DNA of 12,655 bases from an uncultured archaeon (GTDB taxonomy: Archaea; Hadarchaeota; Hadarchaeia; Hadarchaeales; WYZ-LMO6). The translations under genes were made by a program, and so were the position numbers. The DNA lies in contig CALJER010000041.1 in NCBI GenBank assembly GCA_938074535.1, forward strand, positions 1 to 12,655, in the 5' to 3' direction. The notes under the pieces are model-generated. The model was not told the DNA's origin. It made no database searches and saw nothing but the letters and a program-made list of their open reading frames with translations. Positions 8,603-12,137 of the stretch are shown piece after piece (positions within the stretch are counted from its first letter, which is position 1; each line of letters starts with the position of its first letter).

Positions 8603-8881
8603 ATGAAGCTCAGGTGGTGGATGGTGGGTTTGGCGGTCTGTCTCTTGATGGCGGGAGTCCTCTCCCTCTTCGCCTCTCCCCTTCCCGACGGCCTGGAGAG
8701 GGTGGCGGAGGACCACGGGTTTGCCGGAAAAGCGGAGGAGCTCTTTTCCTCCCCCCTTCCGGACTACTCCCTCCCGGGGCCGGGCGGTGCCCTCTCCACC
8801 TCGCTGGCGGGAGTGCTGGGTGTCGTCTTGGTCCTCCTCCTGACCCTCCTCTGGGCCAGGGTGCTCAGGAAGAAAAAATGA
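8603..8881 (+). CDS. PDGLE-domain accessory membrane protein (NikN-type) of the ECF Ni/Co transporter
   Basis: 92 aa with two TM helices flanking FASPLPDGLERVA...PLPDY. Its stop overlaps the next start (ATGA). Confidence 0.88.
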   Translation: MKLRWWMVGLAVCLLMAGVLSLFASPLPDGLERVAEDHGFAGKAEELFSSPLPDYSLPGPGGALSTSLAGVLGVVLVLLLTLLWARVLRKKK

Positions 8882-9630
8882 AGCACCACTTCCTGGATCA
8901 GTACAGCGACCGTGCGAGCTGCCTCCACTCCCTGGACCCCAGGGTCAAGATCCTGGCCTTCCTCTCCCTGGTGGTAGTGGTGGTGCTCACCCCCCTCACC
9001 CACCCCCACCGCTTCCTCCTCTACGCCCTCCTCCTGGTTGCCCTCGTCCTCCTCTCCAGGGTCCCCCCCGGTTTCCTCCTTAGGAGATCCGCGGTGGTTC
9101 TCCCCTTCGTGGGTCTGGTGGCGGCGGGTCTGCCCTTCCTGGGGGGGAGCGGTGGCTCCTACAACCTGGGACCCTTCCACGTGACCCGCTCCGCTCTCCT
9201 CATCTTCGTCAACGTCCTCCTCAAAGCCTGGTTCTCCGTAATGGCGATGGGTCTCCTCGTGTCCACCACCCCCTTCACCCGTCTCCTGCGGGGCTTCCAG
9301 TCCCTCGGTCTTCCAGCCCTCTTCACCACCCTCCTCTCCTTCATGTACCGATACCTTTACCTCCTCACGGATGAGTTCGAAAGGATGGCGATGGCCAGGG
9401 ACTCCAGGGCCTGGAGGATGGGCAGGCTGGAGAGGATGAGGATCACGGGGAACATGGTGGGGGCGGCCTTCCTGAGGAGCTACGAGAGGGGCGAGCGGGT
9501 CTACCTGGCCATGCGGGCCAGGGGTTTCGACGGGAGGATCAGGGTGATGCGCGAGCTCCGGATGGGGAGGTCGGATGCGCTCTTCCTCTCCCTCTTCTTC
9601 CCCCTCCTCCTTTCCGCGGCGGTGATATGA
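8878..9630 (+). CDS. cbiQ: ECF-type Ni/Co transporter T component CbiQ/NikQ
   Basis: True start ATG 8878 (ATGA overlap). Motifs include LHSLDPRVK, STTPFTRLLRG, FMYRYLYLL.DE and the coupling motifs ARDSR and RSYERGERVYLAMRARGF. Confidence 0.92.
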   Translation: MKHHFLDQYSDRASCLHSLDPRVKILAFLSLVVVVVLTPLTHPHRFLLYALLLVALVLLSRVPPGFLLRRSAVVLPFVGLVAAGLPFLGGSGGSYNLGPFHVTRSALLIFVNVLLKAWFSVMAMGLLVSTTPFTRLLRGFQSLGLPALFTTLLSFMYRYLYLLTDEFERMAMARDSRAWRMGRLERMRITGNMVGAAFLRSYERGERVYLAMRARGFDGRIRVMRELRMGRSDALFLSLFFPLLLSAAVI

Positions 9631-10334
9631 GGGCGGTGGAGATAAGGAACCTGCACTACACCTATCCCGACGGGACCAGGGCCCTGAGGGGGGTGAACCT
9701 GGAGGTGGAGGAGGGGGAGAGCGTTTTTCTGATGGGCCCCAACGGCTCCGGCAAGTCCACCCTGCTCCTCCACCTCAACGGGCTCCTCCTCCCCCAGAGG
9801 GGGAGGGTGAGGGTCTTCGGGCTGGACCCAAGGAACGGGGTGGGGGAGATAAGGAGGAGGGTGGGGCTGGTCTTCCAGGATCCCGACGACCAGCTCTTCA
9901 TGCCCACCGTCTTCGAGGACGTGGCCTTCGGCCCCCTGCACCTGGGGCTGGAGGAAGGGGAGGTCAGGAGGAGGGTGAGGAAGGCGCTGGGGGAGGTGGG
10001 GATGAGGGGCTTCGAGAAGAGGAGCCCTCAGCACCTGAGCTACGGGGAGAGGAAGAGAGTGGCCATAGCCACCGTCCTCTCCATGGACCCACAGCTCCTT
10101 GTCCTTGACGAGCCCACGCTGGGCCTGGATCCCTGGGTGAGGGGGAGGCTGCTCTCCCTTCTCCGCAGGCTGAGGAGGGGAAGGACTCTCCTGATGGCCG
10201 GGCACGACGGGGAGCTGATGGAGCTCTGCGACCGGGCCTACCTGCTGAGGAGGGGGAGGGTGGAGAGGGAAATAGATCCTTCGGCGTGGAGGGAGGAAAT
10301 AGAAATAGGAGGGAGGGGGAGAGGTTATCGGTAG
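9627..10334 (+). CDS. cbiO: ECF-type Ni/Co transporter ATPase CbiO/NikO
   Basis: YTYPDGTRAL, Walker A GPNGSGKSTL, VGLVFQDPDDQLFMPTVFEDVAFGP, LSYGERKRVAIA and LLVLDEPT. Stop TAG 10332-10334. Confidence 0.93.
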   Translation: MRAVEIRNLHYTYPDGTRALRGVNLEVEEGESVFLMGPNGSGKSTLLLHLNGLLLPQRGRVRVFGLDPRNGVGEIRRRVGLVFQDPDDQLFMPTVFEDVAFGPLHLGLEEGEVRRRVRKALGEVGMRGFEKRSPQHLSYGERKRVAIATVLSMDPQLLVLDEPTLGLDPWVRGRLLSLLRRLRRGRTLLMAGHDGELMELCDRAYLLRRGRVEREIDPSAWREEIEIGGRGRGYR

Positions 10335-10425
10335 CCCCGTGGTGTAGATCCGCGAGGAGCACAACGGTCAAGCATGGCGGCCTTTGGAGCCGCTGACCCC
10401 GGTTCGAATCCGGGCGGGGCTACCA
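10333..10425 (+). tRNA. trnQ: tRNA-Gln(UUG) with a 17-nt D-loop intron (15/16) and encoded CCA
   Basis: Acceptor stem AGCCCCG/CGGGGCT (A1-U72) plus ACCA; D-stem GTGT/GCAT; anticodon arm GCGGC-CT TTG GA-GCCGC (anticodon 10384-10386); T-arm CCCGG-TTCGAAT-CCGGG. Removing 10348-10364 gives a 76-nt canonical tRNA. Confidence 0.95.
10348..10364 (+). other. Non-canonical tRNA intron (ATCCGCGAGGAGCACAA) at position 15/16
   Basis: Exon GTGT pairs with intron GCAC (4-bp central helix). The 3-nt segments AG^A and AA^C carry the cut sites. The intron hairpin TCC-GCGA-GGA has a GNRA loop. Confidence 0.85.
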
Positions 10426-10463
10426 GTTAGGTTTTTGGGAGATGGAGGAGGAGAATAGGTGGT

Positions 10464-10558
10464 AGCCCCGTGGGGTAGACCCTGTGGCGGGGCCCAACGG
10501 TCAATCCTGCGAGGCTCTGGACCTCGCGACCCCGGTTCGAATCCGGGCGGGGCTACCA
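10464..10558 (+). tRNA. trnQ: tRNA-Gln(CUG) with a 19-nt D-loop intron (15/16) and encoded CCA
   Basis: Acceptor stem AGCCCCG/CGGGGCT plus ACCA; D-stem GGGT/TCCT; anticodon arm CGAGG-CT CTG GA-CCTCG (anticodon 10517-10519); T-arm identical to the first tRNA. Removing 10479-10497 gives 76 nt. Confidence 0.95.
10479..10497 (+). other. Non-canonical tRNA intron (ACCCTGTGGCGGGGCCCAA) at position 15/16
   Basis: Exon GGGT pairs with intron GCCC. Cut sites are AG^A and AA^C. The intron hairpin is CCC-TGTGGC-GGG. Confidence 0.85.
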
Positions 10559-10574
10559 TCCGCGGAGGTGAGGG

Positions 10575-11291
10575 ATGGAGGAATGGAGGTCCCTGGGAAG
10601 GGAGCTGGAGGAGAGGCTCAGGCCGGCCACCTATCCCCTGGCCGTGGCTTTCCTGAAGGGGGGCGGGGTGCCGGAGGGCGTCAGGAAGCCGGAGGAGAGG
10701 CTCTCCTTCTGCCAGCTCCTCACCCTCTCCAGAACCCACGGCTGGACCGTGGGCCTGGGACCGGAGGAGAGCGCCTGCCCCGCCTTCAACCTCATGCTGG
10801 GCTGGCCGGCGGAGAGGGAGATGGTGTTGGAGTTCTTCCAGGCCGCGGGCTACGTGAGGGAGAGGAGGGCGGCGGAGGGCCTCTTGGAGGAGATGGAGGG
10901 GCTCGGGCCCGAAGGAACGGAAAGGGTGGTCGTCTCCCCCCTTACCCGCACGAAGGTGGTTCCCGAGGTGGTGGTGGTTTTCGGCAGCTCCGCCCAGATG
11001 ATGAGGCTGCTCCAGGGTGCGGTCTGCGAGCAGGGGAGGAGGGTGGAGGTGAGGCTGGCGGGCCTGATGGCCTCCTGTGGAAGCGTGCTGAGGTCCCGCA
11101 GGCAGGAGAAGTACGAGCTGGCCATACCGGGGGGAGGTGACAGGGTTTTCGCCGCCGTGCAGGAAAACGAAATCGTCTTCACCCTCCCCGCCTCCAAGCT
11201 GCGCCCTCTGCTGGAGGGAATGAAGGAGCAGAAGCTGATGAAGTATCCCGTTCCCCCCAGGCTTTTCACGCCTTTCTTCCCCGGTGGTTAG
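10575..11291 (+). CDS. DUF169 family protein
   Basis: LRPATYPLAVAF, SFCQLL..SR..G, ESACP...MLG, VVSPL....PEVVVVFGSSAQMMRL, ASCG and PGGGDRVFAAVQENEIVFTLP fit the DUF169/COG2043 pattern. SD GGAGGTGA at 10564-10571. Confidence 0.85.
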   Translation: MEEWRSLGRELEERLRPATYPLAVAFLKGGGVPEGVRKPEERLSFCQLLTLSRTHGWTVGLGPEESACPAFNLMLGWPAEREMVLEFFQAAGYVRERRAAEGLLEEMEGLGPEGTERVVVSPLTRTKVVPEVVVVFGSSAQMMRLLQGAVCEQGRRVEVRLAGLMASCGSVLRSRRQEKYELAIPGGGDRVFAAVQENEIVFTLPASKLRPLLEGMKEQKLMKYPVPPRLFTPFFPGG

Positions 11292-12137
11292 ATGGAGCAC
11301 TTCTTCGTGGAGACGAACGGGGTGAAGCTGCACTGCGTGGGTGAGGGGAGGGGCAAGCTGGTCCTCCTCCTCCACGGGTTCCCGGAGTTCTGGTACTCCT
11401 GGAGGCACCAGCTCCCGGTGCTGGGCAGGCACTTCAGGGCCGTGGCCCCGGACCTGAGGGGGTACAACGAAAGCGACAGGCCGGAGGGGGAGGAGCCCTA
11501 CAGGCTGGAGGTGCTGGTGGAGGACGTGGCCGGGCTGGTGAGGGAGCTGGGGGGAGGAAGGGGGATGGTGGTGGGCCACGACTGGGGAGGGGTGATCGCC
11601 TGGGCCTTCGCCGCCCTGCACCCGGAGCTCACGGAGAAATTGGTGGTGATGAACGCGCCCCATCCCTCCGTCATGGCGAGGGAGATCTCCAGCCCGGAAC
11701 AGTCCAGGAGGAGCTGGTACATTTCCTTCTTCAGGAAGGAAGAGGCGCCCGAGGAGTTCCTGAGGGCGGACAACTACGCGGTGCTGAAGGAGGTGCTTAA
11801 GAGCACGGCCGTCAAACCCGCCTTCACGGAGGGGGACCTGGAGAGGTTCGTGGAAGCCTGGTCAAAGCCCGGGGCCCTCAGGGCGGGCATCAACTACTAC
11901 CGGGCCAACGGTCCCGAGAGCCCGATGAGGGGGCTCCCGAAGGTGAGGGTTCCCACGCTGGTGATCTGGGGGAAGGAGGATGCCTTCCTCGGCCTGGGGG
12001 TGAGCAGGGCGGACGAGCAGGTGGAGGGCCCCTACAGGGTGGTCTACCTGGAGGGCTGCGGCCACTGGGTTCAGAACGAGGAGCCAGAGCTGGTCAACCG
12101 CCTGCTGCTGGAGTTCCTGCTGCAGGGGGAGAGTTAG
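11292..12137 (+). CDS. Alpha/beta hydrolase, epoxide hydrolase-like
   Basis: Oxyanion motif LLHGFPEFWYSWRHQ, APDLRGYNES, nucleophile elbow GHDWGG (Asp), cap tyrosines SWYISFF and INYYRAN, acid WGKEDAFL, catalytic His GHWVQNE. Confidence 0.9.
   Translation: MEHFFVETNGVKLHCVGEGRGKLVLLLHGFPEFWYSWRHQLPVLGRHFRAVAPDLRGYNESDRPEGEEPYRLEVLVEDVAGLVRELGGGRGMVVGHDWGGVIAWAFAALHPELTEKLVVMNAPHPSVMAREISSPEQSRRSWYISFFRKEEAPEEFLRADNYAVLKEVLKSTAVKPAFTEGDLERFVEAWSKPGALRAGINYYRANGPESPMRGLPKVRVPTLVIWGKEDAFLGLGVSRADEQVEGPYRVVYLEGCGHWVQNEEPELVNRLLLEFLLQGES

What the first reader, a model, noticed from the sequence alone, without database searches (positions are those of the whole stretch)
10333..10558. Both tRNA-Gln genes carry a short intron in the D-loop at position 15/16
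Seen: each tRNA is 17 or 19 nt too long. The extra bases lie right after A14-G15, and removing them restores a 76-nt archaeal tRNA-Gln (…TAG|CGGTCAA…). The boundaries fall where an archaeal splicing endonuclease cuts, after the second nucleotide of the 3-nt segments flanking a 4-bp helix (AG^A, AA^C). Established: most archaeal tRNA introns sit at 37/38, and non-canonical sites are best known from Thermoproteales and relatives. Inference: 15/16 is a rare site. These are likely the only Gln isoacceptors, so splicing would be essential, and standard scanners may miss or mis-score the genes. I cannot confirm from memory that this position is unreported.
Basis: partly seen in the sequence, partly recalled or inferred. 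Interest (0 to 1): 0.85.

Follow-up and report, generated by a model that had tools for sequence, protein, structure and literature searches.

The report
Short D-loop introns in tRNA-Gln genes
Both glutamine tRNA genes of this hot-spring archaeon (Hadarchaeota) are interrupted by a tiny intron in the D-loop that must be cut out before the tRNA can work; this is a real but ordinary example of a known archaeal habit, and it is common in this lineage rather than rare.

Summary
Two tandem tRNA-Gln genes, UUG at 10333-10425 and CUG at 10464-10558, carry 17-nt and 19-nt inserts right after G15. ARAGORN and the Rfam tRNA model miss both genes. Removing the inserts in silico gives 76-nt tRNA-Gln cloverleaves.

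Each insert has splicing-endonuclease geometry. D-stem nt 10-13 pair with the four intron bases before a terminal AA. A 3-nt bulge (AG^A) and an intron hairpin follow.

I searched 41 genomes of the same order (Hadarchaeota by record titles) and recovered 73 tRNA-Gln genes from 40 of them. Forty-three genes in 25 genomes carry an insert at this site. All 38 distinct versions keep the 4-bp helix, with compensatory changes. The other genes are intron-less and match the predicted spliced product in their D-arm.

The outer exon-side helix is absent, so the motif is the relaxed HBh' form. The genome encodes RtcB and a single alpha4-type EndA. No RNA evidence could be obtained.

D-loop introns and heavy tRNA disruption in Hadesarchaea are already in print. 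The site also occurs in tRNA-Gln of Asgard, DPANN and Nitrososphaerales MAGs. Verdict: real introns (about 0.88 confidence), a new member of a known kind, modest interest.

The parts
10333..10425 (+). pre-tRNA-Gln(UUG) gene, 93 nt with encoded CCA (10423-10425)
   Evidence: One search gives the sequence; a 76-nt tRNA-Gln(ttg) after in-silico removal of 10348-10364; the only BHB-compatible solution.
10333..10347 (+). 5' exon of tRNA-Gln(UUG), nt 1-15 (acceptor strand, U8, G9, D-stem 5' strand, A14, G15)
   Evidence: The D-arm made by joining the exons is identical to that of intron-less orthologues.
10348..10364 (+). 17-nt intron at 15/16. Layout: A, 3-bp hairpin h' (10349-10351 with 10356-10358) capped by GCGA (10352-10355), H' strand GCAC (10359-10362), AA (10363-10364).
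   Evidence: The MFE fold of the pre-tRNA shows exactly H, the 3-nt bulge and h'.
10342..10345 (+). H-helix exon strand (nt 10-13, GUGU). It pairs with 10359-10362 before splicing and with nt 22-25 after.
   Evidence: H helix 100% paired in 38 sequences; the pair at nt 11 covaries (G-C 29, U-A 9, unpaired 0).
10365..10425 (+). 3' exon of tRNA-Gln(UUG), from C16 to CCA
10426..10463 (+). 38-nt spacer between the two genes, with a run of five T at 10432-10436
   Evidence: sequence only. A terminator role is inferred.
10464..10558 (+). pre-tRNA-Gln(CUG) gene, 95 nt with encoded CCA (10556-10558)
   Evidence: a 76-nt tRNA-Gln(ctg) after removal of 10479-10497.
10464..10478 (+). 5' exon of tRNA-Gln(CUG), nt 1-15. 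The H strand GGGU is at 10473-10476.
10479..10497 (+). 19-nt intron at 15/16. Layout: A, h' CCC (10480-10482) with GGG (10489-10491), 6-nt loop, H' strand GCCC (10492-10495), AA (10496-10497).
   Evidence: The MFE of this pre-tRNA prefers another fold, so support here is comparative.
10498..10558 (+). 3' exon of tRNA-Gln(CUG)

Best explanation
Both tRNA-Gln genes of this Hadarchaeota genome are interrupted between nt 15 and 16 by a short intron of the archaeal endonuclease type, in its relaxed HBh' form.

In the precursor, the 5' strand of the D-stem (nt 10-13) does not pair with nt 22-25. It pairs instead with the four intron bases that precede the terminal AA, forming helix H. A14, G15 and the first intron base form the 5' three-base bulge. 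A short intron hairpin (h') stacks on the other side of that bulge. The last two intron bases and N16 form the 3' three-base segment.

Inferred steps:
1. The single alpha4-type EndA cuts after the second base of each segment: 10347|10348 and 10364|10365 in tRNA 1, and 10478|10479 and 10497|10498 in tRNA 2.
2. RtcB joins G15 to N16.
3. The freed D-stem strand re-pairs with nt 22-25 to give a normal 76-nt cloverleaf.

No other tRNA-Gln gene is in the assembly, so splicing should be essential for reading CAA and CAG codons.

Shown here: the anatomy, its conservation and covariation, the intron-less orthologues, and the presence of the enzyme genes. Inferred: transcription, the exact cut sites, ligation, and the order of splicing relative to base modification.
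For: 1. Removing the inserts gives 76-nt tRNA-Gln(ttg) and tRNA-Gln(ctg) cloverleaves. A blind enumeration of BHB-compatible deletions finds this as the only solution for tRNA 1, and for tRNA 2 as the only 76-nt tRNA-Gln among five solutions.

2. I recovered 73 tRNA-Gln genes from 40 of 41 genomes of the order. Thirty have no insert at this site, and their D-arm equals the predicted spliced product. Forty-three genes in 25 genomes have an insert of 15-31 nt at the same site.

3. All 38 distinct (D-stem, insert) combinations show 4 of 4 H pairs in the predicted register. None does so at offsets -3 to +1. All have an h' helix of 2-9 bp abutting H.

4. On alignment A1, 94.1% of cells are paired against 78.6% in shuffles (0 of 500 as high). 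The covariation score is 0.446 against 0.168 (0 of 500). Slid registers give 25-55% paired. The pair at nt 11 switches G-C (29) to U-A (9) with no unpaired case. All five h' pairs show changes on both sides.

5. The H' strand follows the D-stem, not the anticodon. In G011 the CUG gene has a GUGU D-stem and a GCAC H' strand. Several UUG genes have GGGU with GCCC or GCCU.

6. The genome encodes one EndA (178 aa; PF01974, 122.6 bits) with the Tyr, His and Lys motifs aligned to M. jannaschii EndA. It also encodes RtcB (590.8 bits).

7. At least three further tRNA genes of the same genome need non-canonical excisions of the same design (strong h', little or no h): Asp-GUC, Glu-CUC and Ser-GCU.

8. 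The MFE fold of pre-tRNA 1 reproduces H, the bulge and h'.
Against: There is no RNA evidence. The two runs that hold the locus are kept as contigs, are flagged as probably DNA, and retain the inserts.

The exon-side helix h is absent (0 bp). The 3' cut site is therefore flanked by a helix on one side only.

The literature read here says that only (alpha-beta)2 and epsilon2 EndA types, helped by inserted loops, remove such relaxed introns (PMC5829648, passages). This genome has a single alpha4-type EndA. Its catalytic domain (residues 117-178) aligns without gaps to the strict M. jannaschii enzyme, and the genome holds no paralogue.

Fold energies are not significant on their own: z = -1.57 for pre-tRNA 1 and -1.18 for pre-tRNA 2. 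The MFE of pre-tRNA 2 does not show the motif.

The relatives are phylogenetically linked, so the shuffle counts overstate independence.
Confidence: 0.88

Rival explanations
1. The inserts are not removed. The mature tRNA-Gln keeps an extra hairpin in an enlarged D-loop.
For: There is no RNA evidence of splicing. The 3' site lacks a flanking exon helix. The only EndA looks like a strict alpha4 enzyme.
Against: The conserved pairing uses up the 5' strand of the D-stem, so a retained insert would compete with the cloverleaf. Loop sequence and length vary freely (15-31 nt), while H, both 3-nt segments and the stem base of h' are kept. Thirty of 73 orthologues lack the insert altogether. Rfam scores the uncut genes below threshold.
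Confidence: 0.05
2. The inserts are removed, but at boundaries shifted by a base or by a route other than EndA plus RtcB. For example, only the bulged 5' site is cut by EndA and another nuclease trims the 3' side.
For: Strict-type enzymes (A. fulgidus, fused M. kandleri EndA) cut a D-loop HBh' intron mainly at the bulge and leave the other site uncut (PMC5829648, passages). N16 varies among relatives (C, U or A), so sequence alone does not fix the junction to the base.
Against: Shifting either boundary by one base changes the D-loop away from the sequence of the intron-less orthologues. The terminal A-A/U followed by N16 is kept in 38 of 38 distinct versions at exactly 4 nt plus 2 nt from the helix, as the symmetric endonuclease rule requires.
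Confidence: 0.05
3. The two genes are decaying pseudogenes, and functional tRNA-Gln genes lie in the unassembled 6% of the genome.
For: The assembly is 93.64% complete in 53 contigs.
Against: The four other genomes of the genus carry the same tandem pair. Their exons differ at no more than two positions each, and each change keeps a standard pair, while the intron loops differ. One of these genomes is in only 4 contigs (G002), and it showed no other full-length tRNA-Gln match in the BLAST search. All stems are intact after excision.
Confidence: 0.02

Closest known systems
[quoted passage not shown]
   Same: A short intron in the D-loop of a euryarchaeal-grade lineage. The motif is the relaxed HBh' form. 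The organism lacks the crenarchaeal loop insertion in EndA. Maturation is needed for an essential tRNA.
   Different: The site is 15/16 rather than 20b/21. The enzyme here is a single-gene alpha4 type rather than (alpha-beta)2. The M. kandleri mature tRNA was seen by RNA-seq, while none is available here.
A. pernix pre-tRNA-Thr(UGU) D-loop intron (PMC3241643, passages read)
   Same: An intron in the D-loop removed by EndA alone in vitro. This shows that a D-loop position is workable for the archaeal enzyme.
   Different: That intron is described as a canonical BHB cut by an (alpha-beta)2 enzyme carrying the Crenarchaea-specific loop. The strict A. fulgidus enzyme hardly cut it. The exact position is not given in the passages I read.
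tRNA gene disruption in Hadesarchaea YNP_N21 with an alpha4-type EndA (PMC5829648, section 16 and Figure 7 legend read)
   Same: The same lineage, the same EndA type, and the same general observation of many non-canonical and multiple introns.
   Different: The text I could read gives no intron positions or isoacceptors. It states that an L3 loop is present in that EndA. I could not find an insertion relative to M. jannaschii EndA in this genome's enzyme. Supplements are closed.
D-arm introns of Asgard archaea missed by tRNAscan-SE (bioRxiv 10.64898/2026.10.13.758758; abstract, section 2.3 and passages read)
   Same: Short (median 22-23 nt) intervening sequences concentrated in the D-arm. They sit at BHB-compatible boundaries and are overlooked by the standard annotator.
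   Different: A different phylum. That study found canonical motifs for only 33% of D-arm insertions. Here the site is uniform and all 38 distinct versions fit one HBh' design.
Multiple non-canonical introns and intron transposition in Thermoproteales (Sugahara 2008 and Fujishima 2010, known to me only through PMC4090602 and PMC4033280 passages)
   Same: Many positions and up to three introns per gene. Related intron sequences occur at different positions in different tRNAs. Here the Asp and Glu-CUC introns are 22 of 28 identical.
   Different: Those organisms have (alpha-beta)2 EndA with the specific loop. The positions listed in the review text (3/4, 20/21, 22/23, 25/26, 29/30, 30/31, 45/46, 53/54, 56/57, 59/60, 'etc.') do not name 15/16.

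Membership tests
Archaeal endonuclease-type (BHB-family) tRNA intron | Central 4-bp helix H between the exon bases just 5' of the 5' cut and the intron bases just 5' of the 3' cut | tested here: met
   GUGU/GCAC and GGGU/GCCC in the window. 38 of 38 distinct relatives have 4 of 4 pairs in register, and none does at offsets -3 to +1. The H helix is 100% paired with one covarying pair.
Archaeal endonuclease-type (BHB-family) tRNA intron | Two 3-nt segments on opposite strands, each cut after its second base, such that excision restores a standard tRNA | tested here: met
   The segments are AG^A (A in 34 and G in 4 of 38) and A-A/U^N16. Excision gives 76-nt tRNA-Gln with a D-arm equal to that of intron-less orthologues. 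The cuts themselves were not observed.
Archaeal endonuclease-type (BHB-family) tRNA intron | Intron-side outer helix h' of at least 2 bp | tested here: met
   3 bp in both window genes and 2-9 bp in 38 of 38 distinct versions. All five h' columns show changes on both sides.
Strict hBHBh' motif (the substrate of classical alpha4 and alpha'2 enzymes) | Exon-side outer helix h of at least 2 bp flanking the other bulge | tested here: not met
   h = 0 bp for both genes. U8 and G9 cannot pair with the G18 and G19 that follow N16. The motif is therefore the relaxed HBh' form.
Canonical archaeal tRNA intron | Position 37/38 in the anticodon loop | tested here: not met
   The insert follows G15 in the D-loop.
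Archaeal endonuclease-type (BHB-family) tRNA intron | Splicing endonuclease and RNA ligase encoded by the host | tested here: met
   EndA at G000:C39:19137-19670. RtcB at G000:C12:5069-6376.
Archaeal endonuclease-type (BHB-family) tRNA intron | Intron absent from the mature tRNA | not testable with these tools
   Only two runs hold the locus. Both are kept as contigs, are flagged as probably DNA, and retain the insert.
alpha4-type (homotetrameric) EndA | A single gene of about 170-190 aa with one N-terminal and one catalytic C-terminal domain, and no beta or fused paralogue | tested here: met
   A 178-aa ORF aligns over residues 13-178 to M. jannaschii EndA 1a79 residues 9-171 (E = 6.3e-34). 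No second match in the genome at E up to 10. 39 of 41 genomes of the order have exactly one PF01974 match, and 2 have none. The oligomeric state was not tested.
Broad-specificity EndA with an inserted 'specific loop' (L1/CSL, L2/ASL, L3) | An extra loop with a conserved lysine relative to strict enzymes | tested here: inconclusive
   Residues 117-178 align to M. jannaschii EndA without gaps. The N-terminal part differs by three single-residue indels. The 5-residue insertion seen in ARMAN-2 EndA (4fz2) between the catalytic Tyr and His is absent. PMC5829648 reports an L3 loop in a Hadesarchaea EndA, but I could not see its figure or supplement to place that loop.

The most novel reading that the evidence does not exclude
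Hadarchaeota process relaxed HBh' introns at many non-canonical sites: 15/16, the D-loop near position 21, 28/29 and the anticodon loop in this genome, and up to three per tRNA-Gln in relatives. They do so with a single alpha4 EndA whose catalytic domain is colinear with the strict M. jannaschii enzyme and which has no detectable inserted loop. If so, broad substrate specificity arose here without the loop insertions thought to be required. It would have arisen through point changes, through an unknown helper, or through a precursor fold that supplies the missing helix. The 15/16 site in tRNA-Gln, shared with Asgard, DPANN and Nitrososphaerales MAGs, would then be a recurrently used or ancient insertion site.
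Probability: 0.3. Interest if true: 0.55.

Novelty: new member of a known kind. Interest (0 to 1): 0.3.

Why it matters
In practice, both glutamine tRNAs of this genome, and of most genomes of its order, are invisible to ARAGORN and to the Rfam tRNA model. Automated annotation will report the organisms as lacking tRNA-Gln, or will fuse the two genes into one. Lower tRNA counts may also feed into tRNA-based MAG quality criteria.

Biologically, the case adds a well-supported, covarying example of a D-loop intron placed directly after G15. By my recollection G15 is the base that archaeal tRNA-guanine transglycosylase converts to archaeosine. A TGT-family gene is present. This would imply that splicing and D-arm refolding precede that modification.

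The case also sharpens an open question already raised in print. How does a homotetrameric EndA cope with relaxed motifs in a lineage rich in disrupted tRNA genes? A cleavage assay with recombinant enzyme could test this directly.

Tried and rejected
RNA evidence: the look-up of sequencing runs listed no holder on record as RNA. It listed two runs of one study, labelled metatranscriptomic but flagged as probably DNA. Laying them gave only contigs. Contigs across 10330-10423 and 10425-10556 retain the inserts. One loose end at 10365 belongs to an intron-less tRNA-Gln with a different acceptor stem, so it comes from another organism. This says nothing for or against splicing.

Thermodynamics alone: strand folding z-scores of -1.57 and -1.18 are not significant. 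The MFE of pre-tRNA 2 does not show the motif. I rely on comparative evidence instead.

ARAGORN with introns allowed gave 57 calls, many with implausible introns of hundreds of bases. It fused the two Gln genes into one. Its extra 'tRNA-Gln' on contig C17 has a mismatched acceptor stem and no T-loop consensus, and I rejected it.

An alternative exon-side helix: in the MFE of pre-tRNA 1 the bases after N16 pair with the variable region. That complementarity is not kept in relatives whose T-stem starts with G (sequences), so I do not count it as helix h.

A space does not match a slash, as shown by '20 21' and '37 38' giving 0 hits in a paper that prints 20/21 and 37/38. Word searches and passages from 11 papers named no 15/16 intron, but they cannot show that none is catalogued. 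Marck and Grosjean 2003, Sugahara 2007 and Tocchini-Valentini 2011 are not held. Sugahara 2008 and Fujishima 2010 were not looked up, because their reference entries give no PMC id. Figures and supplements that list positions were not visible. tRNAscan-SE, SPLITS, GtRNAdb and SPLITSdb are not available here.

L3 loop: I could not place it, because only the top three PDB alignments were printed and the figure is not held.

Not used: protein homology searches, structure prediction, complex prediction and the metagenome scan. The question did not need them.
Full report
**What is in the sequence**

The stretch 10333-10558 holds two head-to-tail tRNA-like genes on the + strand. Each has a 7-bp acceptor stem starting A1-U72, an encoded CCA, a normal T-arm and a normal anticodon arm. 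The anticodons are UUG (10333-10425) and CUG (10464-10558). Each gene is too long by 17 nt (10348-10364) or 19 nt (10479-10497), and the extra bases sit directly after A14-G15.

Standard scanners miss or misread the genes:
- ARAGORN in default mode finds nothing in the window.
- Rfam finds nothing at gathering thresholds.
- With relaxed thresholds the Rfam tRNA model gives partial hits of 25.6 and 23.6 bits, below its 29-bit cut-off.
- With introns allowed, ARAGORN fuses the two genes into one tRNA-Gln with a 157-nt intron.

When the inserts are cut out inside a script, ARAGORN calls tRNA-Gln(ttg) and tRNA-Gln(ctg), 76 nt each.

**Anatomy of the inserts**

The archaeal splicing endonuclease recognises a 4-bp helix (H) flanked on opposite strands by 3-nt bulges, and it cuts after the second base of each bulge. 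Applying this rule gives the same layout in both genes:
- The exon bases nt 10-13 (GUGU or GGGU) pair with the four intron bases that precede the terminal AA (GCAC or GCCC).
- A14, G15 and the first intron base form the 5' bulge.
- A 3-bp intron hairpin (h') starts right after that bulge and runs straight into the H' strand. In tRNA 1 it is capped by GCGA.
- The AA plus C16 form the 3' segment.

A blind enumeration of all deletions that obey this rule, each tested with ARAGORN, returned one solution for tRNA 1. For tRNA 2 it returned five solutions. One was the 76-nt tRNA-Gln; the other four were over- or under-length or carried another or no anticodon.

The exon-side helix h is missing (0 bp), so the motif is the relaxed HBh' form and not the strict hBHBh'. 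The MFE fold of pre-tRNA 1 reproduces H, the bulge and h'. The MFE fold of pre-tRNA 2 does not, and neither energy is significant against shuffles. Single-sequence folding is therefore weak support.

**Comparative evidence**

The genome is a 1.2-Mb, 63% G+C assembly in 53 contigs, 93.64% complete. Near-identical loci in public records are titled Hadarchaeota, Hadesarchaea or Hadarchaeales.

A BLAST search of 41 genomes of the same order (the window's genome included) matched in all 41. With two further fetches I recovered 73 tRNA-Gln genes from 40 genomes. None was found in G025, which is 65% complete.
- Thirty genes have no insert after G15. Their D-arm reads exactly as the predicted spliced product.
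- Forty-three genes in 25 genomes have an insert of 15-31 nt at the same place.
- Counts by family: f1 6 of 6, f2 15 of 22, f3 0 of 1, f4 1 of 9, f5 3 of 3.

These inserts were defined only by comparison with the intron-less D-loop, not by any pairing rule. Among the 38 distinct (D-stem, insert) combinations:
- 38 have 4 of 4 H pairs in the predicted register, and none does at offsets -3 to +1.
- 38 have an h' helix of 2-9 bp abutting H.
- The first intron base is A in 34 and G in 4.
- The last two bases are AA or AU in all.

On the MAFFT alignment of these 38, the named structure has 94.1% of cells paired against 78.6% in shuffles (0 of 500 as high). Its covariation score is 0.446 against 0.168 (0 of 500). 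Slid registers give 25-55% paired. The pair at nt 11 switches between G-C (29) and U-A (9) with no unpaired case, and all five h' pairs change on both sides.

The H' strand follows the D-stem and not the isoacceptor. In G011 a CUG gene has a GUGU stem and GCAC. Several UUG genes have GGGU with GCCC or GCCU.

The sequences are related, so the shuffle figures overstate independence. The slid-register control and the repeated concerted switches do not depend on that.

**Is splicing essential here?**

The 226-nt locus has no second copy in the genome. The only other match is a 51-nt, 79% stretch in a tRNA-His gene. The Rfam tRNA model finds 42 matches at E up to 1, of which 38 are over the cut-off, and none is another tRNA-Gln. 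My own T-arm and acceptor scan finds only these two genes with a Gln anticodon. The extra ARAGORN -i call on contig C17 is a false positive. Within a 93.64%-complete assembly these are therefore the only tRNA-Gln genes.

**Machinery**

The genome has one EndA gene, a 178-aa ORF at G000:C39:19137-19670. It aligns over residues 13-178 to M. jannaschii alpha4 EndA residues 9-171. The catalytic domain aligns without gaps, and the Tyr, His and Lys motifs are kept.

No paralogue appears at E up to 10. Thirty-nine of the 41 genomes of the order have exactly one PF01974 match and two have none. The enzyme is thus the alpha4 type by gene content. RtcB is present.

[quoted passage not shown] That paper attributes the broad specificity to an L3 loop. 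I see no insertion relative to the M. jannaschii enzyme, and the 5-residue insertion of ARMAN-2 EndA between Tyr and His is absent. I could not see the paper's figure or supplement, so this point stays open.

**Context in the same genome**

The 15/16 introns are part of a genome-wide pattern. The rule-based search also resolved these genes:
- tRNA-Asp(GUC), with a 28-nt D-loop intron after nt 24.
- tRNA-Glu(CUC), with a 28-nt intron after nt 37.
- tRNA-Ser(GCU), with a 19-nt intron after nt 29.

Each has a strong h' and 0-1 bp of h. The canonical 37/38 introns (Pro-CGG, Arg-UCG, Trp) have 5-7 bp of h.

Three further candidates look multiply interrupted but were not fully resolved. One on C14 and one on C26 each have a predicted first intron after nt 8 or 9. 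I read these by eye as Lys-CUU and Asn-GUU. The third, a CAU-anticodon gene on C26, has a predicted 21-nt intron after nt 32.

**What is known**

- Non-canonical archaeal introns at many positions are textbook knowledge (PMC4090602 and PMC4033280, passages).
- D-loop introns are documented and were cut in vitro for A. pernix tRNA-Thr (PMC3241643, passages) and M. kandleri tRNA-Glu at 20b/21 (PMC5829648, passages).
- D-arm introns are the class most often missed by tRNAscan-SE in Asgard genomes (bioRxiv 10.64898/2026.10.13.758758; abstract, section 2.3 and passages).

The pattern scan of one genome per species gave 73 stretches. Four are bacterial chance matches. I examined 25 archaeal loci whose titles name neither Hadarchaeota nor Hodarchaeaceae. 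They are labelled Promethearchaeota or Promethearchaeati, Odinarchaeota, Hermodarchaeum, Woesearchaeota, Nanoarchaeota, Diapherotrites, Nitrososphaerales, Methanosarcinales, or unclassified archaeon. All 25 close into tRNA-Gln genes with an insert after G15 that ends in the same H'-plus-AA (or AU) design. The pattern itself required that ending, so this shows breadth and is not an independent test.

No cultured, named archaeon was among the hits. The site is therefore common in uncultured lineages. Whether 15/16 is listed in the older catalogues I could not establish (see Tried and rejected).

**Verdict**

The inserts are very probably genuine, essential, endonuclease-type introns at 15/16 (confidence 0.88). 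The remaining doubt comes from the lack of RNA data and from the mismatch between a relaxed motif and a strict-looking alpha4 enzyme.

This is a new member of a known kind. The most novel reading still open is that this lineage cuts relaxed motifs with an unadorned alpha4 EndA (probability about 0.3).

Noticed in passing
G000:C17:61173-61200(-) and G000:C16:3651-3678(-): The 28-nt introns of tRNA-Asp(GUC) (D-loop, after nt 24) and tRNA-Glu(CUC) (anticodon loop, after nt 37) are 22 of 28 identical. None of 20000 random 28-mer pairs from the genome reached that identity. Both share the core GCGAGGAG with the tRNA-Gln(UUG) intron. This suggests copying or transposition of an intron between tRNA genes, as described for Thermoproteales.
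   Followed up: partly
L021, L024, L027, L113, L123, L125, L127, L130, L131 (relatives' tRNA-Gln(CUG) genes): In several genera of the order the CUG gene is 128-132 nt long. By eye it carries three inserts: one at 15/16, one in the anticodon loop before U33, and one inside the T-loop. The UUG genes in L022, L118, L122 and L124 also have inserts in the T-arm region. Boundaries were not worked out.
   Followed up: partly
L020, L026, L028, L142; also L009, L012, L119, L131, L137: There is a second D-loop insert of 17-30 nt further downstream, after the GGUC of the D-loop near position 20a/21. It occurs alone (G040, G024, G039, G023) or together with the 15/16 insert (G005, G009, G013, G028, G034). 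For L020 I could draw a 4-bp H helix and AA^A by hand, but I did not test it by script.
   Followed up: partly
L010:1501-1599 and L010:2090-2188 (G011): The UUG and CUG genes of one genome carry an identical 26-nt intron and identical D-arms. G005 and G028 show near-identical pairs. This points to gene conversion or recent duplication between the two isoacceptor genes.
   Followed up: no
window 10352-10355 and the same place in L003-L006: Within the genus the 4-nt loop of the tRNA-Gln(UUG) intron hairpin reads GCGA, GCAA or GGAA. All three are GNRA-type tetraloops on a conserved 3-bp stem. The DNA contigs of runs X1 and X2 carry the GCAA variant (G>A at 10354).
   Followed up: no
window 10346-10348 and G000:C3:82323-83285(-): G15, the last base of the 5' exon and the second base of the 5' bulge, is by my recollection the site of archaeosine in archaeal tRNAs. 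A TGT-family gene in a 550-aa frame is present. Splicing probably has to precede that modification. This was not tested.
   Followed up: no
window 9627-10334 and 10575-11291: The tRNA pair lies between an ABC-transporter ATPase gene and a DUF169 gene. The ATPase gene follows a CbiQ-type gene at 8614-9630, and its TAG stop (10332-10334) overlaps the first two bases of tRNA 1. An A/T-rich stretch at about 10298-10310 could be the tRNA promoter's TATA box (my reading, not tested). The long minus-strand ORFs across the tRNAs (9501-10364, 10368-11663) look like high-G+C artefacts.
   Followed up: partly
G000:C14:87-220(-), G000:C26:4975-5128(+), G000:C26:7630-7742(+): Three heavily interrupted tRNA candidates, 113-154 nt long. 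The script predicts a first intron after nt 9 (C14) and nt 8 (C26, 4975-5128), and a 21-nt intron after nt 32 in the third. It gave no clean cloverleaf for any of them. I read them by eye as Lys-CUU, Asn-GUU and a CAU-anticodon tRNA.
   Followed up: partly
L032, L042, L080, L093: Four bacterial records (Kitasatospora, Haliea, Burkholderiaceae, Streptomyces) matched the degenerate pattern by chance. None shows a T-loop, and the one that closes a complementary 3' strand (L032) has no tRNA features. This gives a rough false-positive rate for the pattern scan.
   Followed up: yes
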